Shown here: one piece after another, positions 1,136 through 47,762 of the stretch | Position numbering within the stretch: the first letter of the stretch is position 1 | Layout of the letters: each line of letters begins with the position of its first letter | From: Lytechinus pictus | Lineage: Eukaryota | Length of the DNA stretch: 64,000 bases | Direction of reading: 5' to 3' | NCBI RefSeq assembly: GCF_037042905.1 | Contig: NC_087251.1 | Location: forward strand, 41,480,001-41,544,000 | Translations under genes and position numbers: made by a program | Notes under the pieces: model-generated | Databases searched by the model: none | Seen by the model: only the letters and a program-made list of their open reading frames with translations | Told to the model about the DNA's origin: nothing

Positions 1136-4100
1136 GTGAGTTTCTAAATAGAAGAACGAAAACAAGCTTCAAATTATTATAAGAAGTGGTTTAATTGAGG
1201 TTAAAATTGTATTTATGAGGATTTTCATATCAGTCATGTCCTCAAGAATGTTGAAAGTTTGCTCTTTTTTTAAATTCATATAAAGTGTATTTTGGTTGTC
1301 TTTATTGACTGATTTATCTTTTTTTTTTGGGGGGGGGCATGGTAGTGAAATATTGAAGTAAGTATGTTGTGTTGTTATTGCAGGTCATTCTTTTACTCTT
1401 TCAATTGTTTGTTTAAAATTGGCTCACCATAAGTTCAGTCCTTTTTATTGCAAGTAGCAACTTTACAGATTTGATTAGTATGAATTACACTTCATAAGTA
1501 TATCCTTCCCACCTGCACAAAATTCACAAATATGAAACATGATTATAAAAATCATTTTATACATTTGACATTAAACCCAGATTGATATCAGGCACAACAG
1601 TTCCTGTTTGTTTTTGTTTTTTACTTCCTTAGATTTGATTTATTGATTTCCGTTTTACAATTGTACATAATATGATAAACATAACATAACAAGGTCAAAA
1701 ATACTACAAGACATAATATAATATATATATATAACATAATCATAGATTTAAGGAAGACTTGCATGAATATTGGGACGATATCTTTTCATTGAATATTAGT
1801 CTATTTATTTTTTCGATTATATGAAAATAATGAATCTTGAATGTGTGCTTTGTTTTGATTTCAGAGAGCTTTGCCAATTCAGCATGCAGCAGCTAGGACG
1901 TTGTGTGTTCTAATGAGAAACTGTAGGAAGTTAGATCATAGACAAGACATGGTAGCTAAACTCATCCATGGTAAGTCACTTACTCAAATATAATGCTCGA
2001 TTTATACAAAAGCCCTGTACTACATGTCCATGGTATATGTATGATTATTACCTGTACAAGGCATTTTAGCAGATAGATAAATGTCATATTTCGCTTGCTA
2101 CGAGACCAACGGGGTAAACATTTGCCATATTGACCTCCCAGTGCTTTGCCCATAGGAACACTGTACAAAAACAGAGGGCAATATTGGCCATATTTCTGCT
2201 AGTGCGCTTGCGTAGTAGGAGCCGATTTTGATCGCTGATTTCAGTACCGGTATTTGCGAAATCTGGTTGCAACCAGTTTGTGAACCAACGCATTGTAGAT
2301 AATGTGCGGTGCGGCCAGTGCATACACATTCCAAGCTGATCAGATCCAAGCGCAAGATGTGTTAACTGTATGTGAGTGCCATGCATGATGCGCAACTGCG
2401 CGGTAATAATTTACGTCACGATTGCTTAGCAGGTATTAGTTCGCCAAGTTTGTGAATAACATGACATTAGAACTAGTGGTAGGCAAAGAGGCATATGAAT
2501 TATTCAAAATTTTAGCTTGAATTACACATTATTCAACTCTAGGTAATAATTATAATATTGACTGGCTCTTCTTTCAGGAAACATCAAATATGTTGCCCTT
2601 AAAAGAACCATATTGCCCTCGCCTAAAGGCTCGGGCCAATATGATTCCGTCGCGGGCAACATATTTGATGTTCCCCTTAACCCTATCTTAACTGGGCTAT
2701 TTCGGACCAGTAGGCCTATATACTGGGGGGGGGGGGTCAATTTGACCCCCCTCAGATCTCGGCTGCTGATTGCGCAATCGCCGCGAAAATTTGCAAGCGC
2801 GTAGAGCCGGATATAAACTACAAGAGTGTATAGTAAAATTTTCAACAACAAAAATTATGATACTTTTATTAATTAATTATGCAAATAAGCATGTGAAATT
2901 TGCCATAAATTTGTTTTTTTGTGTATGTATTTGCCTTTAACTCAATTTATATAGCTAGTAGAATGCTAATTTTTGGTGAGAGTATCAATTATTACATTTC
3001 TAACAAATATCTACAAAAACATAGCAAAAATATAATTAATTTCTTATGTATTTTATTGTTTTTTTAATTCTTATGTATTTCTTTGTTTTTTCAAACCTTT
3101 GTTTTTCCCGATGAACTTTGTCAAGGCCCCTTTTGTGATCATAAATAGCATAAAATAAATCCATTTAAACCAACAAAACTAAAAATAATCATACATTTAT
3201 GATTTTAGGTCAAAAAACACAATTTGCATTGACTTTTTACACGGAATCACGTTTTTGAGCAATTTCTGATGCGCAAGACTTGAAAGTAAAAAGTCAGTGA
3301 GCGGCGCAGTCAAAAAAATTTGTGCGACGGCGTAGTGACAAAATTTGTTGAGGGGGGGTCAAATTGACCCCCCCCCCCCCCCAGTTTAATAAGGGTTAAG
3401 GCCAGTCAATATGATATAATTTTATTTTCACGAGAACCTCCATAACAAATGACTGGTAATTCCCTGTGCATCGTGTACTTTTATCAGTCTTCTATAATAA
3501 GATAAAATATCTTATTTTAGATGAATTTAGATTAAGAATTTAAATGAATTTAGATACAGTAATATTTTCATAGTCATTCATATGCACAAGTAGGGAATAC
3601 TTCATGGTAATATGGACATTAAAAAACTTGCTAAATGCTTTAAATATTGCTTGTAAATACATTGCTTTTTTTTTTCTCTCTCTCTCTTGGTGCACAGTCA
3701 GCTGAAGAAAGTTGTCAATGTTCACTAAATGTTAAAATATCTGTATTTATATTTCTCTTTCTTGTTTTATAGAGTGCTGTAGGAGTAAAAGTAGTCGCTA
3801 TAGGAGGTTATACATTGACATATGTGTCATAGTTATGGAGATGTTCTCTAAATCATTCTTCAAGGATAATTTCATGGAGCCATTGATGGATCTCACAGCG
3901 GATCCTGTTCCTAATATCAGGTATGTAACAGGGCTTCAAGGAGAATTTCATGGAGCCATTGATGGATCTCATAACGGATCTTGTTCCTAATATTAGGTAT
4001 AAAGCAGGGCTTGAAGGAGAAGTTCATGGAGGCATTGATGGATCTCACAGCGGATCCTGTTCGTAATATCAGGTATGTAACAGGGCTTCAAGGAGAATTT

Positions 4101-7100
4101 CATGGAGCCATTGATGGATCTCATAACGGATCTTGTTCCTAATATTAGGTATAAAGCAGGGCTTGAAGGAGAATTTCATGGAGCAATTGATGGATCTCAT
4201 AGCGGATCCTGTTCCTAATGTCAGGTATGTAACAGGGCTTCAAGGAGAATTTCATGGAGCCATTGATGGATCCCATAGCGGATCTTGTTCCTAATATCAG
4301 GTATGTTACAGGGCTTCAAGGAGTATTTCATGGAGCCATTGATGGATCCCATAGTGGATCCTGTTCCTAATATTAGGTATGTAGCAGGGCTTCAAGGAGA
4401 ATTTCATGGAGCAATTGATGGATCTCATAGCGGATCCTGTCCCTAATGTTAGGTATGTAACAGGGCTTCAAGGAGAAGTTCATGGAGCCATTGATGGATC
4501 TCATAGCAGGTCTTGTTCCTAATATTAGGTATGTTACAGGGCTTCAAGGAGTATTCCATGGAGCCATTGATGGATCTCATAGCGGATCCTGTTCCTAATG
4601 TTAGGTATGTAACAGGGCTTCAAGGAGAATTTCATAGAGCAATTGATGGATCTCATAGCGGATCCTGTTCCTAATGTTAGGTATGTAACATGGCTTCAAG
4701 GAGAAGTTCATGGAGCAATTGATAGATCTTATATCTCAACAATTATGGTTCACATTTGGAAAAAATTCAGTGATTCCAAGAGAAGAATTTCTGTTTGAGA
4801 GATGTGTTTATTAAAAAAAATAAGAGTAGGCCTATATTTATTTGTCTAGTTATGATCTTTGGAACCAAATTTGATCAATCCTTTGAATTGATTTGATTTG
4901 TCAGGTTAAAGATGTGCTCTCTGCTTCCTCGGATCAAACATCAGATGAAGCTACCTGAGGACAGAGAGAATCTTCAAGCCTTGGAGTTGGTCGTTAGAAG
5001 GCTACTCTCATCAGAGAAAGATAAAGATGTAGATGTGGCCATTAGACAAGTGAGTGTTATTTACTTATTATTTGTTTTATTTCAAAGGTCAAGTCCACCC
5101 CAAAAAAATGTTGATTTGAATAAATAGAAAAAAATCAAACTAGCATAATGCTGAACATCATCAAAATCGGATGTAAAGTAAGAAAGTTATGGCATTTTAA
5201 AGTGTCGCTTATTTTTCACAAAACGGTTATATGCACAAATCAGTGACATGCAAACGAGACAATTGATGATGTCCTTCACTCACTATTTTTATTGTTTGAA
5301 TTGTACAATATTTCATTTTTTTTACAGATTTGACAATAAGGACCAACTTGACTTAACCATATAGCATTAAACAATGCTAATTCCACATGTTCAGGGAGGA
5401 ATTAATCATATTTCACTTGACACTAAGGAGAAAATTTGAATATTTCATATAATAAAATACAAAAGAAATAGTGAGTGGATGACGTCATTAGTCTCCTCAT
5501 TTGCATACCGACCAGGATGTGCATATAACTGTTTTGTGAAATTAAGCAAAACTTTAAAATGTCATAACTTTCTTATTTTACATCTGATTTTGATGAAATT
5601 TTCAGTGTTATGCTTGTTGGATTTTTCAGACCCCCCCCCCAGTCTTCTTAGGCATCAAAATAGCACAGTCTTTTGAGGATTAATAGGGTATTAGATGCAT
5701 TGATTTTAATCAGTAAAAGTAATAATTTTATGAAGTTTGGCTAGAAACAGAATTGCATTGGATGTGTCGAATAAGATCATGTTTTTAAAAGTAATTTTGG
5801 TTCTGATATGAACTTAAAATATTTTTTACATTCTTGACCACATACCCAGGCATTGTAATTGAAATTAAAAAGAAAAAAAGAAATGTGGCAGAAAAATCTC
5901 TTTGTAATATGGACTTATCATGCAAAGCAACCACTCTCCAGTGAGAATTAATTCTGTCATTTCTCAAAGATTTTAAAGTTTTTCTGTTATCATAAGAGTA
6001 CATTGATGACATTAGTGCCTAAATCAGCAGACTGCCTTGTGAAAGCTGGATGGTTAATAAGATGTTTTCACCGTTTATTTAAAGAGATCCTTTACTTTCT
6101 TTTCTTTTCTTGCAGGCTGTTTTTGAATTGGACAGAATACAAGTTCATGTAGACTCAGTAAGTTTACCCCCCCCCCTTCTCCACTTATACTTAAATACTT
6201 AAATGTGAATTATTCATCTAGAATATTAATAAAACAGACAGACATTTACCATTAGTATGATGAAATATTGAACTTCACTTTTTTTTAATTGTGTAATTGA
6301 TTACTAGAGGCTTTAGATAATGTGGGTTAAGGGTTTCCATGACATTGCTTCGGCGACAACTGCCATGATGGAAAGTATGCACATTAAGCCAAACATAAAA
6401 TCTGTCCTCCAAAACTAAATAAACCATAATCATTATTTTTACATTATTCTGAACCCAAAAATCTATGACAATGCTAACTCTAACCCTATGCCCTCTGAGA
6501 TATTAAGACCAGAGCAAATGTCGCAGGAGCATATGTGGTGTCACCGGTTTGGTATTTGAATTAGATAGTGGCGGGACACCACTGTAATTTTTGTAAGCAG
6601 GGTCCCAGCGCCAAGGCTCCGATCAGGACCTTGCGCACCAATTGAAAAATAATTACAGAAATCTAAACTGATTCAGATCGTTAAGTTATCACTATTCATA
6701 CAAAAATTTTCACATGATATAAAAATTTGAATGATTGAAATCAAAGTATAGAAAGAAGATCACTGAGCAAGATTTCTCAATGATCTTGTTTGAATTTATC
6801 GACCTCCAATGTTACGATGTTGTTTTGAAATTCTTGATTTTTTTCTATCACCTTTCTAGCTGAACATGTCACAGTATTACGAAGACGACATGCAAGACAG
6901 AAAGAAAGAGGCTGAGGAACGTTCCATGATGGAGATTGAGAGAAGGAATATGGATGAAGGAATAGAGAAAGGAGCAAGAGAGAAAGGATCAGCCAGGCAT
7001 ACAGAGAAGAAGAAAGAAAAAGAGAGCAAAACAGAAAAGAACGTTCATACACACAGTCAATCTAATCCAGCATCCGCTCCATCAACTTCTTCAAGAAAAG

Positions 7101-10100
7101 GTTTGTCAATTGATCAAAGCGCAATATTTGTGCAGTTTTCTGAGTTGGAGTGATCTGTTTAACTTTGTATTGTGTGTGTATGATATTATTTGGTCTTGAT
7201 TTTATTCCTCTTCCGTGTAACTCTTTATACATTATGCTAATGTGCAGTATCGAGGAGAAAAAGAGGACACACACATGCACAAATGCTTACACATGAAAGA
7301 CAATTAGATAGAAAATTGATAACAGGTAAAAAAATAGTAAGAATTGCTTGTAGAGAGTAGGTTTGATTCAATATACTAATGAGAGAATTGGCATTGCCCT
7401 TTTTCAAGAGCCAGTTTTAGCAGTGATTTGGTATAGGGGATGCTTGAATTAGTCTTTATATTTAATATTGGTTTGTGTGTCTGTTTAATTATTATCCACC
7501 TTTATGAAGGTAAAGTTTTCACCTTTTAGCTTATCCACACTGATTTGGTTTGCATGTTTTGCTCGAGGGCGTTTTTTTTTTCCACTCCATTTTATTCATA
7601 AAGATTGTCTCATAATACTTGATAAATAAGACAGTTTATTAGTTTCTTAGCAATATCAAAGCTTTGCATATTATTAGAATGCACAATGTGAGTTATATAA
7701 TTTCAATTTGCATGATCATTTGATAGATAAAATAGATTATTTTGGTACATAGATTTGTTATTTAGAAAAGGGTAGCTGTGCATGATTCTTTGGTTTTAGC
7801 TCAATGCAGTGGTGTTATCTGAAGCATTTATTTATATATTTTCTTTGTACTCCTCCAATATTTTCCTTTTCATTTTAATATTCAACTTGATTGATTATTT
7901 GATCGTGATTTTTTTTTTGTAGGAGGTTAGTTTCTCATTTCATAGAGTCTAGGAAGTACAATTATGCTGATATTGCTTTTCGATACTCAAATTTGATTAA
8001 GATTTCTTTTAAAGCTCATTTGATTGTTCTTTCACATTCAAGTGCAATGTCATGCTTTAAAACTATCATAGGAATGGCATTTACAAGCTTTGAAGTTTTC
8101 TTTAGTCATTCATTCTAGGGTTTCGTTTTAAAAATGTACAACAAATTCAAATTTTTCTATGAAAGCTTGACATCAGCCAGTAAAAAACTAAATTTTCTTG
8201 TCTTTTAACATTTTTCAGAATTTTGTTTTTCTGATTTTTTATACGAAGGCACATTTTATATTTGAGACTCTAATCTCCTAATCTTAACCACTGCATGAGT
8301 TTGCTGTGCTTGCTTTGTTTCTATCCTTCTTTCCACTCTATATCTCTTTCTGTTTGCAGTGTCTAAAAGCACCAGCCACAAACACAGTAGTACACCGTCA
8401 GGGGGCAAGAGCTTCCTGACTAATGGCCCCCAAACTAGCAAAAATATTGCCTCGTCATCATCAACCAAAAGCTCAGTCTCGAATGGTCCCCACTCGGGCA
8501 AAAATGTTGCTTCGTCATCAACAAAGAGTTCGGTGTCTAATGGTACCCCCACTGGCAAAAATATTCCCTCGTCATCAGCAAAGAGTTTGGTGTCTAATGG
8601 TCCCCCTAGTGGCAAACATAATGCACCAACATCGTCTTCCAGGAAGACTTCCCCTCCACAGGGTCCTCCAATGAACACTGCTATTAGAGGTATGAAGCAT
8701 TTAGATGATACTCTGGAGTATTTAAAGAGGGTTTCGCACTGAGCCTGTGTAGAGCTACATAGTTTTGCATGCCGACTACGCCAAAGTTGGCTGAATGCTT
8801 ATGGTAGGAAAAATATTGCTCCTTGCACGATTGACGTAGTTATGGAATTTTTTATTGCAATTATGAAATGAAGTCTGGATATTTCTTTAGACTAGCGCAG
8901 GCTGGCGTACTCTTGTGCAGGTACATCATAGAGAAGCGTAGCTTTGCGTATAAATCTTGCACCATTGTGTAGTAATGCATAGACTTCCGTAGAAATAAAG
9001 AGTCTAAGAAGTGTATGCTAACATGATTGTATATAGTATGGAAGATGTTGATTATCGTGGTAGTATAGAATCGGTAAAGGAAATAATCTGTTGTCTCACG
9101 ATGCGGCAAACTGAAATTGCGACGTTGCGACTGCACCTGCTAGTCTTCGTCAGGCAATGAAGTGGACAATCGCTGTGTGCGCCTTTTATACCGTAAGCTG
9201 CGTGCCGTCGGTGCCGGCACCGCCGCGCTACGATTGGTCGGAGTAACCGACCAATCAGGGCAGCTTACGGTATAAAAGGCGCACGCAGCGATTGTCCACT
9301 TCATTGCCTGACGAAGACTAGCAGGTGCAGTCGAAACGTCGCAATTTCAGTTTGCCGCATCGTGAGACAACAGATTATTTCCTTTACCGATGATTGATTA
9401 TGTTTTGCATACATGTACCTTGATGTTGCCCTGTCCTACAGTGCTGTAGACCATTCATTGTAGGCATCGCATAGAGTCTATGCAAGTTCATGTAACTCTA
9501 CGCAAAGCTTGGTGTGAAACACTTCAGAGAAAAAAAAAGCTTGTTATAAATTTGAATAGTCTTACAAAACCATGACGACTTTGATAATTCAAAGGTGCTT
9601 CCTTGATGCATGCTTGTGAGAAATACTTAAACAAGGAAGTGAAATAGTTCGAAAATTATATTAAGAAAGCATTGTGTTGTATTATCAAATGATGATAATT
9701 CTTTATAAATGTAAAGTATGAATTCAGATTCATTTAATGAATATTGAGTCTTTCATATGTGGGTATCAAACTTGTTCTTGTATAAAGTATTCATCATGGT
9801 TTGAGCTCTGCCCATGTGAACCCAACACTAAATTTCAGTATTAATTTTCATGCCTGTTTTTCACCTACATGTACAAAAACTAGCATAAAGACTTTTGCAA
9901 ATAAATTTATTATACTTAAACCTGCTAGTAAGAGATTGGTCCATGTAGATGAATAATTCTTATCAGGTCAAATAACCATTATCTAAAAGAGCCTTTCTAC
10001 TTATTTTTATCAAATGAACCGAACATTGCTTAATGATAAAGTCTATCTAATTGATATTTTTTTCTGTTGGCTACACTTATTTCTTGTTTTTTTTAAACTA

Positions 10101-13100: not shown

Positions 13101-16100
13101 TTGTTTGAACAGCCGTAATAGATCTGGTTCTGATGGCTTGCTAGCTACGTCTATGATGCGGAATACAAGGTTTATCCATCGCTTCTAACTCCTGCTTACA
13201 GTTTGGCTCTAAACCACTTTCTCTCTCCTTTCGCTCTGTAGTTATCACATATTTGCCAGGCAAATGTATGTGTAACATCTTTCTTTATTTAAAAATCGCC
13301 TTTCTTGTCTGGCTTTCATGGTTCTTCTGGTGCTTTTATCATTGTCGTACTTGTGTTCTCCTTTTCCATATGCCATTTCATTCATTTATAAAAACAGTTT
13401 GAGTGTCAGAAATATGGCTTTATATTTGGTTTTCCATGATTGGTTCCTGTCAAGTTGAAAAGTGTGTGCTTGTTTTGAATATTATGTTTACATAGGATAT
13501 TAATTTGTGATTCTAATAAACATGTATGTATGTTTTTACTTCATTGTAAAGCTGCAAGTTCAATTTACATGCTTACTTTTTATGTGATTGAATTGAATTG
13601 AATTTATTCAAACCAGTCAAAGGAGAACAAAATACAAACAAAATAAATGGTTACATTATAAAGAACTAAAACAAATGGCAGGTTTGGGACCCCAAAGAAG
13701 CACAGCTTGTAATCAGGGGCCCCTGCATTAGATATTTTACTCAAACATGGAATAACTATGAATAGAAGAAAAAAAAATACAAGGTATTTAAAGATCACAA
13801 CAGGAACACTACCCACACGCAAGCATACACACACTCACACAGACAAACACACACATTCACACTCCAAACATGTCACCCCCAGGTGCAACTAACAACTGGT
13901 CTTAAATTTATCAAGTAGGTATTTATGACATAATTTCTTAAACCGAGATAGGGTACTGCTACTTCTTATATCAGCAGGACACATATTCCATTCTTTAACG
14001 CAAATTGTTCTAAAGGATTTCAATGTAGCATTAATTCTAGCATAGGGTTGGTGAATAAGATGTCTCTGACGTGTGTTATAATTATGAATCTTAGAATTAA
14101 CCACAAAAGTTTCTTGTAAAAAAGAACAATGCAGGGATTGGTATTTATGTGATTGAATTGTTTAATTGTTGTGTGCTGTGATGTAAGTTTACATAATTTA
14201 TTTCAGGATAAGCAGTCCTTAAGATGTGATAGAAATTATGAGAAATAAATATAAACAATGAAAACAAAAATTTCAATGAAAGTGTTAGTATTGATCAAGC
14301 AATGACAAAGCTCAAAATATCTGTACTAATCTATATTCTAATAATAATAATAAATTTAATTTAATAGGCACTATATCCATCTTGTGAGAGGTGCTCAAGG
14401 TGCACAAGTGAAGGGGGGAGCAAAAAAAATAACAAAGGAATTTTATACTGAAAAAAAAAGATCATTGATAAAAAGAGTTATGGAGTTAAGTTTTTAGCTT
14501 GATCTTAAATGTTTCGTCACACTTGCTATCCCGGATCTCTCGTGGGAGGGAATTCCATGGCGAGGGCCCCGCATAGATGAATGCCCTTCCCCCCACTTTG
14601 TTTTACATTTTGGAACTGATAGAAAACCAGAGTCACTGGAGCATAGAAGCCTAGAAACCAAAAGGTTAAGATATGCCCTTAAAAAATGTTATTAATATTT
14701 TGATTGATATCAAACTCATATTTAGGTGATGGTAACTTGACATTTCCCTTTCATGTCCCTGCTTAAATGAGATAAGTACCATAAATTGTACAGTGTATAC
14801 ATGAAAGTGTTTCACAACCTCCAAAAAATAAGAATGCGGTTTGTAGCTTTGCATCATTACCCCCTCCTCAGTGCAACAATAATCCAGTATTTTAAAACAA
14901 GGAAAAAGAAAAACAAAGATATCTGATGATTTTCCAGTGATTCAATCGCTTGCTGCATGCACTTATTCATGCTTCCATGCAATAAACATGGTTTCATCAT
15001 TGATGCCTTTCATGAAAAAAAATAACTTCACTGATTTTTTTTTGTGGTTGATTTTGAAATAAAAACATTAATGACCTTATCTTATGAAATTGTTTGACAG
15101 TGTCAGTTTGAAGTGGGCTTTAAAGGTAAAAAAATATATAAGCATTGCTTCTTTTGTATACAGTAGGCCATGTCCATTTTCATCTTTATGTCTGTATGAA
15201 TAGCTTAAAGGGGAATGAAACCTTTGGAATAAGTAGGCTTGTATGGAAACAGAAAAATCAAAGAATAAGAACAAAGAAAGTTTGAGAAAAATCGGATAAA
15301 TAATGAGAAAGTTATGAGCATTTGAATATTGCAATCACTAATGCTATGGAGATCTTCCCATTGACAATGCGACAAGGATGTGTGATGTCACATGTGAACA
15401 ACTTTCCCTTTGATGGACTATAAAATACCCTCAAAATGTCTCTTTCTGCTTTTTCTTGTGGTGATACAAACTCTTTATCTATGATGTATTCTTAAAAAAT
15501 CTGTATTACATGCCCTCCTTTAGAAAGAACACATGATCTACTGATAGATGTGATAAAAGAGGCAGTTTAAGTGAAATATATACTAAAGTAATGGGGAAAG
15601 TTGTTTACAAGTGACATCACACGTCTTTGTCGCATTGCCAATTTGAGAATCTCCATAGCATTAGTGATCACAATATTCAAATGCTCATAACTTTCTCATT
15701 ATTTGTCCAATTTTTCTCAAACTTTTGTTGATCTGTTTCTTTGATTTTTCTGTTTTCACACAATATATCTTGTTCCAAATGGTTTCATTCTCCTTTAACA
15801 TGCAGACTGTTTGCAGTGAGACACGGTTCCCTAACAACTCATCTCTGTGACTGTACATACTAATGGAAGTATATTATTATCATTTTGTTTGACAGAACTA
15901 CAAGGGTTCTAGAATACAGTAGTTCCTTATCATCTCCTACAGCCAGCAGTGCAGCTAAAAGATCAACTAGTGGAACACATGTATCAGGTATGCACTATCT
16001 GCAAGGATATGGGAGTTCAGCTTGAAGCTGATTTCAGCTACCCCCCCCCCCCCCCCAGCTTATTCTCAGCTGCTTGTGTACTTTGGTTGTACAAAAGTAT

Positions 16101-19100
16101 TAGAGCTTTTGAAATTTCTGTGATGTTCATATTTGGTCACTCACCTATTTGTATCTGATGAAGGAGGGGAGAAGAAAGGGGGGGGGGAGGATGGGGGAGT
16201 AGTGAAGAGGAAGGAGGAGAAGAGGAAGTAGGAGGGTAATGCACTTAGTAGGAAGAAGGAGTAGAAAGAGAGAAGAGGAGGAGGAGAAAGGGTGAGAAAG
16301 AGAGAGGGAGAAAGAGGAGAAGGAAGAAAGAACAGGAAGAGGAGGAGGGTGGAGGGTGGTGCACTAAGTAGGAAGAAGGAGTAGAAAGAGGAGAAAGGAT
16401 GAGAAAGAGAAAGGGAGAAAGAGGAGGAGGAGGAGAAGAAGAAAGGAGAAGGAAGAGGGTGATACACTTAGTAGGAAGGAGGAGTAGAAAGAGAGAAGAA
16501 GAGGAGGAGAAAGGATGAGAAAGAGAAAGAGGAGAAGAAAGGAGAAGGAAGAGGAGAGGGTGGAGGAGATGCACTTAGTAGGATGAAGGAGTAGAAAGAG
16601 CGAAGAAGAGGAGGAGAAAGGATGAGAAAGAGAAAGGGAGAATGAGGAGAAGAAAGAGGAGGTGGTGTAGGGTGATGCACTTAGTAGGAAGAAGGAGTAG
16701 AAAGAGAGAATAAGAAGAGGAGAAAGGATGAGGAAGAGGAGGAGAAGGAAGAGGAGGTGGTGTAGGGTGATGCACTTAGTAGGAAGAAGGAGTAGAAAGA
16801 GAGAAGAAGAGGAGAAAGGATGAGAAAGAGATAGGGAGAAAGAGGAGGAGGAGAAGAAGAAAAAAGAAGGAGAAGGAAGAGGTGGAGGGTGATGCACTTA
16901 GTAGGAAGAAGGAGTAGAAAGAGAGAATAAGAAGAGGAGAAAGGATGAAAAGGGAATGAAAAGGGTGGTGAACATAAGCATGGAGGAATAGAAAAGAGAA
17001 AAAGGGAGGGGAGAACATTGAGAAGGAGGAGGGAAGAGGGAGGGGAGGAGGGAATAGGGAGGGGGGAGGGAAGGAAGAATAGAGAGTGGTTAATGTATAT
17101 CTAAGTCAGAAGTATACAAGAACTTGTGTAATTTCTTGCATTGTTAATACTCTCTAAATGACACGTATTCTTTCCTTGTTCAATGTTTATAGAATCCAGG
17201 AAGTCTTCAGCATCATCAGTCAGCTCAACTCGGTCCGGCAATTCTTCTTCTAGTCATCTATCAACTTCAACCTCTTCAACCAGAGTGTAAGATATGAGAC
17301 AATATTGTGATGTTAATAGGACGGTGTACTCATTGAGATGCTCTTAACCCTTATTAAACCAATTTACCCCCCCTCGACAAATTTCATCACTACGCCGCCG
17401 CACAATTTTTTTTACCGCGCCGCTCGCTTTCAAGTCTTGCGCATCTTTTGAGACCAAATTTGCGACGCCCGGGTACGCGGTTCCAAAATTAAGCAATAAT
17501 TTGTAAGTGCATGTCAGACCAAAAATTGCTCAAAAACATGATTCCTTGTACAAAGTCAATGCAAATAGTGTTTTTCAACCAAAAATCATAAATGTATGAT
17601 TATTTTTACTTTTGTTGGTTTAAATGGATTTATTTAAGTTATTTATGATCGCAAAAGGGTCCCCGACAAATTTTAAATTTTGAAAATTTTACTATACAGT
17701 CTTGTAGCTTACATCTGGCCCTACTCGCATGCAAATTCTCGCGGCGATTGCGCAATCAGCAGCCGAGATCTGAGGGGGGGGTCAGTATATCTTGGACTGA
17801 AAAAGCCGAGTTAAGATAAGGTTAAAGACTGTCCTTAACCCTAAAAGGAGGCTAAATACCCCCCCCCCCCACACACACACATACAAAATTGATATTTTTC
17901 TATTTATTACTCATTAAATTTTGTGCCTTCCTATTTCACTCATTATGTGCAAGATCAAGTTCACTTTTGCTTGGCATACAGATTCAAAGCTTCACATGGT
18001 TTGGTGCTAGCATGTTGGAACTTATAAAAACTGCTTGAAAACATTATTTCTTGAGAAATATTTGTGAAATGTCAATGCCAGTAATGTTTTTGTTTAATAT
18101 TATCTTTTTGAAAACATTTGGAGAAGGTGTGTCTATCAGGATCCCAAGTATATCAGAATATAGATTATTGAGACAACTTGACATATGATCAGTATGATTA
18201 TAAAAGAAAAATGAACTCTCTGGCCAGTGTTCTGAAGTCAGGTTTAAAGGGGAATCCAACCCAAATAAAAACTTGTTGTTATAAGGAAAAGATAAATCAG
18301 ACAAGTTGATAGCTGAAAGTTTGAACAATATTGGACAAACAACAAGAAAGTTATTGAATTTTTAAAAGTTGTAAATATTGGTAATCACTATACCCATGGA
18401 GACTTCAAATTGGCCAGATATGGGATGTCATAGTGATGTAAGGCAAGGACTACTCTTCCATGTACTCCAATACATATTATGGCTAAAATGTCATTTTTCC
18501 CAAAAGTTTTATTTCAAATTATATTTTTCTTTCATGAGGACATAAAACAATATACTACCTGGGTTATATTTAGATTACTGCCCCAGGGGAATGGGTACTT
18601 AGGAGAAAACCACAAATCCCTGATAATAAAGTACATGGCTTATGGGAAAGTTGTCCTTGCCCCTTGTCATAATTTACTTACCCAGTTGCCAATTTGAAAT
18701 CTACATAGTATTAGTGATCTCAATTTTAAAACAGCTATAACTTTCTTATTGCTTGTCTGATTTCTTTCAAATTTTCACCATTCTGTTTAATTCATTTTTC
18801 TCCTTCCCAACACAAGATTTTATGGCCAAGGCTGGATTCCCCTTTAACTTAGACCACAGTCTAATTCTAAAATTATGGGGAGCCAAAAATTCTGTTTATA
18901 TTGTATATATCTTATGTTTACTAATTTATTTCCTTTTGCTTTCATAATGAAGAAAAATACTTCAAAATACATGTACTATAGTTATTCCCATACAATTATG
19001 AACTATTTGGGTGTCATATGATAGTAAATTGGATTTGTGCCCCAATTAGCTCTTCATAGTTAAGCCACAACTTTAAACCAGGGTTTAATTCAAACCCGAG

Positions 19101-44945: not shown

Positions 44946-47762
44946 TAGACGGGTAAATATATGGTTTGACCCGGAACAAATTGCAACAAATGATTTTTCA
45001 ACGGTATTTTGTACTATTTGACCTCAGGAATAACATACTAAAAATCTACCAAAATCCGCATCCGGGAAAATTGTTATTTTCAAGATGGCGTCCAAGATGG
45101 CCGCCATTCACTAAAAATGGATATAACTCACTCATTATCCACCGTAGAATCCTATTTGGGTTCATATTCCATGGTCCAATGGGTAAAATAATTTATTTAT
45201 ACAAGTTCAGAGTGAATATTAGCACTCCAGGGTACCAAGCAAATCCAAGATGGCGCCCAAAATGGCTGCCGTAGTCTAAAAAATCCACAATTCATCTATT
45301 ACTTACTTAAGTGGCTTTAATTTGGTTTCCATTCGATTGTTTTAATGATGAAGTAGTACGTCGGGACAAGTTACAAGGACAACCAGTGGTCTGGTGTGTC
45401 AAAAAATACAGGATGGCTTCCAAATATTGAGTTTAAAATGGCTATTAATCCTTAAAATGGACATAGCTCATATCACATCCACTTGAGAGATATGGTTTTG
45501 GTGTCTAGACCATGGTTTCAATGGTCAAATAATACATTGGAACAAGTTACAAGGACAGTCAGTGGTCCGGTATGTTCAAAAATCCAAGATGGCTTCCAAA
45601 AATGGAGTAAAAAATGCTGTTGCTCCTAAAAAAAACCAACATAGTTTGTTCAATATCCGGGAATATGATTTTTTGCCTATACCATGGTTTCATGGTTAAA
45701 ATAATACGTTTGGACTGGTTACATTAATATGCAGTTGTCCAGTTTGCCTAAAACACAAGAGGGTTTTTAAAAAAGGAATATAAAACGACACATATCATTC
45801 AATAGTGGTCAGAGTTCTACAATATTCATCTGCAAGAAATAATGTTGGTGTCCAAATTGTGGTATGAAGGGTCAAATAATACATTCGGACAAATAACAAG
45901 GATGGTTAGTACACCATTTTGTCAAAGAATCCATGATGGATTCTAAAATTTCATAAAAATGGGTGCTGTTACCATCTCATGAAGCAATATGATAACTTGT
46001 CCCCATGCATTTAAGTGTAGGCACCAAGATTATTTCTAACAGGTATATATTTTATGGAGCAGTAGTCACTTTACATGCTTTAGAACCCATTTTTAAGCCA
46101 ACTTGGATATCATGGTAACCAGTCGCAAAGTATTGGGACCCTTGAAACCCTAGTGTAGACACCAAAATAATATCCCCAAGGTGTATTTATAATGTTCTAC
46201 ATCCACTTTTACGTAACAGCAGTCATTTAAGACCCCCATTTTTAAAGCCATCTTTGATTTTTGGACATACCTGACACCTGACTGTCTTTTCAACTTAACC
46301 CAATGTATTGCTTGACCCTGTAAACTCTAGTATAGACAGTAAAATCATACCTCCAAGGTGTATTTATAATAAACTATGCATACTTTTAAGTAGCAACAGT
46401 CAATTTACACCCCATTTTTTAAAATTAATCTTGGATTTTTTAACATACAGACAACTGATTGGTCTTGTAACTTACCCTAGTGTATTACTTGACCCTTTTA
46501 AACCATGCTTTAAACACAAAACTCTTATTTCCCGGACAGATATTATACAAACTATGTCCTTTTATAGGTAACATCAGACATTTCTTACTCCATATTTGGA
46601 AGCCATCTTGTAATTTTGGACATACTAGACCACTGACTGCCATTGTCTTGCCCTAATATATAATTTGACCCTTAAAACCATAGTTTAGACACCGAAATCA
46701 TATCTCATAGGCGGATTTAATATGAGCTATGACACTTTTAAGTATCAACAGCCATTTCAGAATCAAGTTTTGGAAGCTATATTGGATTTTTGGTCATACC
46801 AGACCACTGACTGGCCTTAAAACCTGTCCCAATGTATTATTTTGGCCCTTAAACCAGTGGTTTAGACACCAAAATCGCATCTCCCATGCCGATATGAAAT
46901 AAGTTATGTCCGCTTTAAGTAGCAGCAGTCAATTTAGAATAAATTTTTGGAAGCCAACTTAGATTTTTTGACCGACCAGGCCACTGACTGTCCTTGTTAC
47001 TTGCCCTGATGTATAAATTGATCCTTGAAACTAGTGGTTTAGACACCAAAATCACATATCCCAGGCCAAAATTAAATGAGCTATGTCCGCTTTAAGTATT
47101 AGCAGCCATTTCAGAATCCATTTTTAGAATCCATCGAGGATTTTTGAACATACTGGACCACTGACTGTCCTTGTAACTTGTCCCAGTGTCTTATTTGACC
47201 ATTGAAATCATGGTCTAGACACCAAAATCACTATGTCCCAGGCGGATATGAAATGAACTATGTCCATTTTAATTATCAACAGCCATTTTAAACTCTATTT
47301 TTGGAAGCCATCTTGGATTTTTGGACACACCAGACCACTGGCTGTCCTTGTAACTTGTTTCAATGTAATATTTCACCCTTAAAACCATTGAATAAAAAAC
47401 AAATTTAGATGAATTGTGGATTTTCAGCCTACGGCAGCCATTTTGGGCGCCATCTTGGATTTGCCTGGTACACTGGAGGGCTTATAATTCATTCTAGCCT
47501 AAATCAATTTTTGTACCCCCAGACCATGGAATATGAACCGAAATAGAATTCTCGAGTGGATAATGTGTCAGTTGTATCCATTTTCAGTTAATGGCGGCCA
47601 TCTTGGACGCCATCTTGAAAATAACCACTTTCCCGGATGCCGATTTTGGTAGATTTTTAGTATGTTATTCCTGAGGTCAAATAGTACAAAATACCGTTGA
47701 AAAATCATTTGTTGCAATTTGTTCCGGGTAAGGCTATTTTTGGTCGTATATTGACCCGTCTA
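44946..47762. mobile_element. Foldback-type (Academ-like) non-autonomous transposon with internal ~177-bp subrepeats
   Basis: gaa|TAGACGGGT...ACCCGTCTA|gaa; ~400-bp unique TIRs, then about 4 forward and about 8 reverse tandem subrepeats. Confidence 0.8.

What the first reader, a model, noticed from the sequence alone, without database searches (positions are those of the whole stretch)
3858..4730. Exon end and 5' splice site amplified into an 11-donor tandem array
Seen: the 76-bp unit is the last 63 nt of the PPP4R4 exon plus the first 13 nt of the intron. AG|GTAT donors therefore recur at 3921, 3997, 4073 ... 4681 (nine GTATGT, two GTATAA). Only the first donor gives intact protein; reading past it hits TAA at 3988-3990. 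Each unit also has YAG|GT after a short pyrimidine run, the form of a recursive-splicing (ratchet) site. Inference: the spliceosome has to pick 1 of 11 near-identical donors. Copy number could tune productive versus NMD-targeted mRNA, the array could be removed recursively, or it could be a snapshot of intron gain by AGGT tandem duplication.
Basis: partly seen in the sequence, partly recalled or inferred. Interest (0 to 1): 0.72.

Follow-up and report, generated by a model that had tools for sequence, protein, structure and literature searches.

The report
Repeated splice donors; only first used
In a sea urchin phosphatase-subunit gene, the end of one exon and its splice signal are copied ten more times into the intron, but the messenger RNA reads examined all use the first signal, so this is an ordinary new example of a repeat type already known from human and amphioxus genes.

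Summary
A 76-bp unit (63 exon nt plus 13 intron nt) is repeated 11.5 times at 3858-4733 in a sea urchin PPP4R4-like gene, giving 11 AG|GTAT donors. The array is real: independent contigs hold it, and a second species has it at the same place. In two raw RNA-seq runs, 36 of 36 reads at the acceptor junction trace to the first donor. None of 88 laid reads crossed a unit boundary. That bounds use of later donors at about 8% of steady-state mRNA; NMD was not blocked. Unit ends are poor acceptors, which argues against recursive splicing. The unit already contains intron sequence and the true acceptor lies outside the array, so AGGT-duplication intron gain fails. This is a splice-junction minisatellite like human F7 intron 7 and the amphioxus 'mirages'. 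The scan's earlier notes (unchecked AI notes) report the same arrangement at several other genes of this genome and in other animals. One modest extra: the latest 152-bp duplication began inside the coding exon, while a protein change in that exon has not spread into the copies. New member of a known kind; low interest.

The parts
3773..3920 (+). coding exon of the PPP4R4-like gene; its last 63 nt are unit 1's exon part
   Evidence: tblastn of P0005-P0008; exon letters in RNA loose ends
3858..4733 (+). minisatellite, 76 bp x 11.5, first unit spanning the exon-intron boundary
   Evidence: TRF; unit alignment; no copy elsewhere in the window
3918..3926 (+). authentic donor D1, CAG|GTATGT (intron starts at 3921)
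   Evidence: all junction reads carry unit-1 letters (decoded)
3994..4686 (+). ten silent pseudo-donors D2-D11 (GT at 3997, 4073, 4149, 4225, 4301, 4377, 4453, 4529, 4605, 4681); D3, D5 and D6 have the same 9-mer as D1; D2 and D4 are the weakest (5 of 9 consensus letters)
   Evidence: no use seen
3988..3990 (+). in-frame TAA met by any transcript that reads past D1
3881..4021 (+). first copy of the most recent two-unit (152-bp offset) duplication; it starts 40 nt inside the coding exon
   Evidence: 141 nt with 1 mismatch to 4033-4173
4033..4173 (+). second copy of that duplication (explains unit 2 = unit 4, and unit 3 resembling unit 1)
4734..4904 (+). unique 3' part of the intron with the true acceptor (CAG, 4902-4904)
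   Evidence: RNA joints; orthologous DNA contig in organism B; no convincing likeness to either exon
4905..5049 (+). next coding exon

Best explanation
This is a tolerated splice-junction minisatellite. A segment spanning a pre-existing exon-intron boundary was tandemly duplicated and then expanded by slippage or unequal exchange (mechanism inferred). This happened before the window's species and a second species separated (shown by shared position and shared variant sites). The spliceosome takes the most upstream donor and removes the whole 984-nt intron in one step, so the mRNA and protein are normal. First-donor use is shown for steady-state RNA. The cause is inferred: exon definition from the acceptor at 3772, plus co-transcriptional commitment to the first donor, as in the F7 scanning model. 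The ten later donors are unselected by-products. The copies drift without coding constraint, while selection keeps unit 1 coding.
For: raw RNA X21 and X22 (about 6% of each run read; 34 and 54 reads laid). Junction reads number 12 and 20, plus 4 loose ends with unit-1 letters. The letter found only in unit 1 is in 12 of 12 and 28 of 28 reads, and the letter found only in units 1 and 3 is in 17 of 17 and 31 of 31. Unit-3-specific letters are not listed. Depth is zero at 4685-4892. First-bin depth equals exactly the exon-anchored reads, so no read crosses a unit boundary. X1 has one junction contig, of unit-1 type (depth 97.7), beside unspliced contigs. X3 (organism B, DNA) has head-to-tail unit joints, a contig running from the last partial unit through the next exon, and variant sites shared with the window's units. 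Variant alleles in the copies are 16 nonsynonymous and 3 synonymous against an expected synonymous share of 0.19, so there is no coding constraint. All 8 database proteins have the donor-1 junction peptide. Precedent: F7, LMNB2 and PDGF use only the first donor (PMC1557585 Introduction). Mirages do not disturb splicing (PMC3087553 passages; PMC3902484 passage).
Against: Only 36 informative reads from two runs of one study, with NMD active and no intronic reads. The 95% upper bound is 8% of steady-state mRNA, and the true splicing share could be higher before decay. Tables list only events seen in 3 or more reads. CBS and the 6-16 gene do use second and third donors (as cited in PMC1557585). 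Persistence in two species is compatible with selection as well as with drift. The reads were laid on one unit plus the acceptor side, not on the whole array, so donor identity rests on diagnostic letters.
Confidence: 0.85

Rival explanations
1. Leaky donor choice coupled to NMD. A minority of transcripts use D2-D11, gain the stop at 3988-3990 and are destroyed, so copy number or the strength of D2 and D3 sets PPP4R4 dose.
For: Every downstream choice includes the stop. D3, D5 and D6 have the same 9-mer as D1. CBS and 6-16 use the proximal pseudo-sites (cited in PMC1557585). ABCA7 VNTR length is linked to splicing that yields premature stops (PMC13747324 passages). The array persists in two species.
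Against: 0 of 36 junction reads and 0 of 88 laid reads show read-through. X1 has no contig for another donor although it holds unspliced sequence. Donor letters are no more conserved than chance. The nearest competitor, D2, is the weakest donor.
Confidence: 0.1
2. Recursive (ratchet) removal. D1 is joined to the AG at a unit end, regenerating a donor, and so on to 4905; the final mRNA is identical.
For: YAG|GT at 10 of 10 unit ends. The mature mRNA cannot distinguish this route, and no nascent reads were available.
Against: The 22 nt before the unit-end AG hold 7-9 T, against 11-16 at the gene's 10 acceptors. Another AG lies 19-22 nt upstream in 8 of 10 units, against 26-88 nt at the true acceptors. 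Matrix scores are -3.4 to -0.6, the 50th-66th percentile of 372 background YAGs. True acceptors score 3.0 or more in 9 of 10 cases (leave-one-out; one scored -1.5). The intron is 984 nt, and multi-step splicing generally involves longer introns (PMC4829307 passages). CAG|GT also ends another exon of this gene at 15987.
Confidence: 0.03
3. Snapshot of intron gain by tandem duplication of an exonic AGGT segment.
For: The spliced junction reads AG|GT, a proto-splice site. Mirages have been proposed as seeds of new introns (PMC3087553).
Against: The model needs a wholly exonic duplicated segment, with the last AG as acceptor (PMC3443670 passages). Here the 13 intron letters match the next exon's start at 4 of 13, the acceptor lies in unique sequence 171 nt beyond the array, and that sequence resembles neither exon. 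Organism B has the same intron.
Confidence: 0.01
4. Assembly artefact.
For: Units 2 and 4 are identical, and exact copy number was not verified by a spanning read.
Against: Units differ at a mean of 7.2 of 76 letters. Contigs from X1 and X3 hold several distinct units and the array's right border.
Confidence: 0.01

Closest known systems
Human F7 intron 7 37-bp VNTR (Borensztajn et al. 2006, PMC1557585; I read the abstract, Introduction, first Results section and Discussion)
   Same: The first unit spans the exon-intron boundary, the donor is reiterated into the intron, and only the most upstream donor is used.
   Different: F7 has 4 exon nt plus 33 intron nt, in 5-9 copies with identical donors. 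Here there are 63 exon nt plus 13 intron nt, in 11.5 copies with diverged donors. Latent function of the pseudo-donors was shown by mutation in F7 and is untested here.
Human LMNB2 (100 bp x 10-15), PDGF (81 bp x 16-18), CBS intron 13 and 6-16 minisatellites (seen only as cited in the Introduction of PMC1557585)
   Same: Donor-spanning minisatellites; LMNB2 and PDGF match in unit size, copy number and first-donor-only use.
   Different: CBS and 6-16 also use two pseudo-sites; no such use was seen here.
Amphioxus 'mirage' minisatellites in Adh3, globins BflGb6 and BflGb9, troponin C and PGBD5 (passages of PMC3087553 and PMC3902484)
   Same: Tandem copies of an exon-intron boundary in an invertebrate deuterostome, with 81-100% unit identity, tandem turnover and normal splicing.
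   Different: This case is in an echinoderm and is shared by two species. Haplotype copy-number variation, shown in amphioxus, was not measured here.
Human ABCA7 intron 18 VNTR (passages of PMC13747324)
   Same: A repeat at a donor, with potential for stop-containing read-through transcripts.
   Different: There the repeat lies adjacent to the donor and aberrant splicing is reported; here none was detected.

Membership tests
Splice-junction minisatellite (F7 type, 'mirage') | Tandem repeat whose first unit spans a real exon-intron boundary | tested here: met
Splice-junction minisatellite (F7 type, 'mirage') | Copies carry reiterated splice signals | tested here: met
   AG|GTAT in 11 of 11 full units
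Splice-junction minisatellite (F7 type, 'mirage') | Normal mRNA made from the authentic (most upstream) donor | tested here: met
   36 of 36 junction reads are of unit-1 type in steady-state RNA
Splice-junction minisatellite (F7 type, 'mirage') | Tandem turnover within the array | tested here: met
   152-bp-offset duplication of 141 nt with 1 mismatch; 72-nt and 55-nt unit variants in organism B, one contig each
Splice-junction minisatellite (F7 type, 'mirage') | Copy-number polymorphism between alleles | tested here: inconclusive
   X1 has one unit variant absent from the window's 11 units, but no record spans the array
Splice-junction minisatellite (F7 type, 'mirage') | Pseudo-donors become active when the first donor is mutated (F7) | not testable with these tools
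   needs a minigene or an edited allele
Recursive splice (ratchet) sites | Juxtaposed acceptor and donor, YAG|GT | tested here: met
   10 of 10 unit ends, but inherited from the exon end
Recursive splice (ratchet) sites | Acceptor of real strength upstream of the AG | tested here: not met
   T count, distance to the previous AG and matrix score are all at background level (matrix from only 10 acceptors)
Recursive splice (ratchet) sites | Typically in long introns | tested here: not met
   984 nt; PMC4829307 passage gives a mean of 40 kb but a range down to 650 bp
Recursive splice (ratchet) sites | Exon-to-ratchet intermediates in nascent RNA | tested here: inconclusive
   no intronic raw reads at all
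Intron gain by tandem duplication of exonic AGGT | Duplicated segment wholly exonic, so the intron start equals the next exon's start | tested here: not met
   4 of 13 letters match
Intron gain by tandem duplication of exonic AGGT | The duplicated AG serves as acceptor | tested here: not met
   the used acceptor is at 4904, outside the array
Intron gain by tandem duplication of exonic AGGT | Intron absent in outgroups | not testable with these tools
   present in organism B; no genomic DNA of more distant echinoids was reachable

The most novel reading that the evidence does not exclude
The array is not inert. Its copy number sets a leak to downstream donors that NMD hides, tuning PPP4R4 dose, and this is why two species keep it. 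Because recent turnover has a breakpoint inside the coding exon (3881), the array could also overwrite the exon's last 20 codons with variant letters, acting as a local source of protein variation in a conserved HEAT-repeat region.
Probability: 0.07. Interest if true: 0.55.

Novelty: new member of a known kind. Interest (0 to 1): 0.16.

Why it matters
Little by itself. It is one more natural case in which the spliceosome ignores ten near-identical downstream donors, supporting first-donor choice outside mammals. Its value is as a data point. It is shared by two species and has diagnostic letters per unit, so donor use and exon-array exchange can be read from ordinary sequencing in an embryo that is easy to manipulate. 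If the scan's unchecked notes are right that such arrays are common in this genome, the open question of why they form at splice junctions is better asked genome-wide than at this locus.

Tried and rejected
No whole genome is held for this window, so there was no genome-wide count and no outgroup intron check. The run search listed no holder on record as RNA (no RNA holder listed, not used as evidence); 4 of the 23 listed runs were laid. Summed contig depth in X3 and X1 was not used as copy number, as the tool warns. The count of public runs holding the joined form was not given. Selection on donor letters: not significant. Coding constraint on the copies: none. Likeness of the unique intron to the upstream exon: a 17-column local match, reached by 22 of 500 shuffles in one of three comparisons, treated as chance. 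Echoes at other junctions of this gene: 1 of 20 junction flanks in the window has tandem copies, namely this one; one other flank had a 19-nt hit far away. Look-alikes in other scanned genomes: none. A recalled UPF3A VNTR precedent gave 0 papers and is not used. PMC10078293 passages were not relevant. Searches for this array or an echinoderm mirage in print (listings only, top 20 of 3,658, 2 of 2, top 10 of 135; and, 1 of 1) showed no such paper. The library lacks most subscription journals, and no supplements were read.
Full report
Observation. Tandem Repeats Finder reports an array at 3858-4733, period 76, 11.5 copies, 89% matches and no indels. The 11 full units differ pairwise at 0-11 of 76 letters, mean 7.2. 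Each has AG|GTAT at unit positions 62-67, giving donors at 3921+76n; nine read GTATGT and two GTATAA. No further copy exists in the window. Translation past the first donor stops at TAA 3988-3990, so every downstream donor gives a truncated frame.

The gene. The 48-aa exon peptide found 8 proteins among 8 candidates, all named PPP4R4-like. Five, labelled Lytechinus pictus, are 100% identical. The others are from a second Lytechinus species (98%), Strongylocentrotus (94%) and Diadema (81%). tblastn places ten coding exons on the + strand between about 950 and 15990. The array's intron is 3921-4904 (984 nt, phase 2). All 8 proteins read ...DPVPNIRL.MC... across it, the product of donor 1 joined to 4905. 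These are database gene models and only weakly independent evidence.

RNA test. Four of 23 listed runs were laid on 4605-5080, which holds the last full unit, the partial unit, the unique intron and the next exon. Units were told apart by diagnostic letters. In raw RNA runs X21 and X22 (one study; about 6% of each run read; 34 and 54 reads laid), 12 and 20 reads join the unit to the acceptor. Four more reads have loose ends with unit-1 letters. The tool places the joint at 4676-4901 because unit 1 and the intron both end in TCAG; this is the D1-to-4905 junction. The letter unique to unit 1 appears in 12 of 12 and 28 of 28 reads. The letter shared only by units 1 and 3 appears in 17 of 17 and 31 of 31, and unit-3 letters are not listed. 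Loose ends upstream of the unit (12 and 25 reads) carry exon letters. Depth is zero from 4685 to 4892. The first bin's depth (2.25 and 4.69) equals exactly those exon-anchored reads, so no read crosses a unit boundary. Array contigs of X1 and X3 were laid across such boundaries, which shows the layout can detect them. Thus 0 of 36 junction reads come from donors 2-11, a 95% upper bound of 8% of steady-state mRNA. Limits: NMD was active, there were no intronic raw reads, and tables hide events seen in fewer than 3 reads.

Reality and age. X1 (organism A, kind not on record) holds one junction contig of unit-1 type at depth 97.7. It also holds an unspliced contig matching 4646-4930 with no difference, and several unit variants, one of them absent from the window. 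X3 (organism B, DNA) holds head-to-tail unit joints, including 72-nt and 55-nt units (one contig each). It has a contig running from the partial unit through the next exon, with 11 substitutions and six indels in the unique intron (about 7%) and one substitution in the exon. Variant sites 4641, 4653, 4656, 4676 and 4678 vary among units in both organisms. The array therefore predates their separation (inference). Divergence between units (9.4%) is of the same order as the intron divergence between organisms.

Evolution of the copies. Among 19 variant alleles in the exon-derived part, 16 would be nonsynonymous and 3 synonymous, against an expected synonymous share of 0.19, so the copies are not under coding constraint. 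The donor letters are invariant, but with 24 of 76 columns variable this has P about 0.09-0.2. Unit 1 encodes KDNF, whereas all ten copies have the GAG codon of KENF, the state in P0006 and P0007. X3 shows no contig with the window's letter. So the exon changed after the array arose, and the change has not spread into the copies. On the other hand, 3881-4021 is repeated at 4033-4173 with one mismatch in 141 nt. The latest duplication in this allele therefore had a breakpoint inside the coding exon. Turnover does touch the exon; overwriting of the exon by array letters was not seen.

Rivals. Recursive splicing: the YAG|GT is the copied exon end, and the pyrimidine run is the Pro-Val-Pro codons. 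Unit ends have 7-9 T in 22 nt against 11-16 at ten acceptors of the gene (most placed by tblastn plus AG, two by reads). Eight of 10 have another AG 19-22 nt upstream, and all score at the 50th-66th percentile of 372 background YAGs. One true acceptor also scored low (-1.5) in leave-one-out, so the matrix is rough. Intron gain: the model requires an exonic duplicated segment whose last AG is the acceptor (PMC3443670 passages); neither holds. NMD-hidden leak: not excluded. It has precedent in CBS and 6-16 (as cited) and ABCA7 (passages).

Mechanism. Shown: array anatomy, first-donor use in steady-state RNA, presence in two organisms, and neutral-looking variation. Inferred: origin by duplication across an existing junction, expansion by slippage or unequal exchange, and first-donor choice by exon definition and early commitment. 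In F7 minigenes each pseudo-donor works once the upstream ones are mutated, yet only the most upstream is chosen (PMC1557585; abstract, Introduction, first Results section and Discussion read).

Comparison and novelty. The arrangement is that of human F7, LMNB2, PDGF, CBS and 6-16 minisatellites and of amphioxus 'mirages' (passages). The mirage lead came from an earlier scan note and was checked in those papers. Earlier notes, unchecked, describe the same thing at RCE1, UBR2, ISYNA1, TRPA1, TBC1D9 and a kinesin gene of this genome, and in a shark, an annelid and a camelid. Within this gene, 1 of 20 junction flanks in the window has tandem copies. My searches showed no paper on this array or on an echinoderm mirage (listings only, limited library).

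Verdict. Real, accurately described, and a new member of a known kind. Interest 0.16. The most novel surviving reading (a copy-number-dependent, NMD-hidden dial, with possible exon overwriting) has probability about 0.07.

Noticed in passing
window 8420-8624: A coding 57-bp x 3.5 repeat (about 19 aa) inside exon 8360-8693 of the same gene. By eye the Strongylocentrotus protein P0007 has about six copies against four here, and isoform records P0001-P0003 lack this exon.
   Followed up: partly
window 3994-4002 and 4146-4154: The nearest competitor D2, and its duplicate D4, are the weakest donors (5 of 9 consensus letters), with three clustered changes in the intron part. This could protect D1, but with 2 of 10 weak donors it is not significant.
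   Followed up: partly
window 3867: Unit 1 alone has the letter giving Asp where P0006 and P0007 and all ten copies have Glu; the array preserves the ancestral codon.
   Followed up: yes
window 3834: RNA reads and the X1 contig carry a silent Val-codon difference from the window in the exon upstream of the array (loose ends).
   Followed up: no
window 16204-17086: A composite GA-rich repeat with units of about 95-107 bp, just downstream of the last mapped PPP4R4 exon.
   Followed up: no
window 46137-47388: A 177-bp x 7.1 tandem array at 73% match.
   Followed up: no
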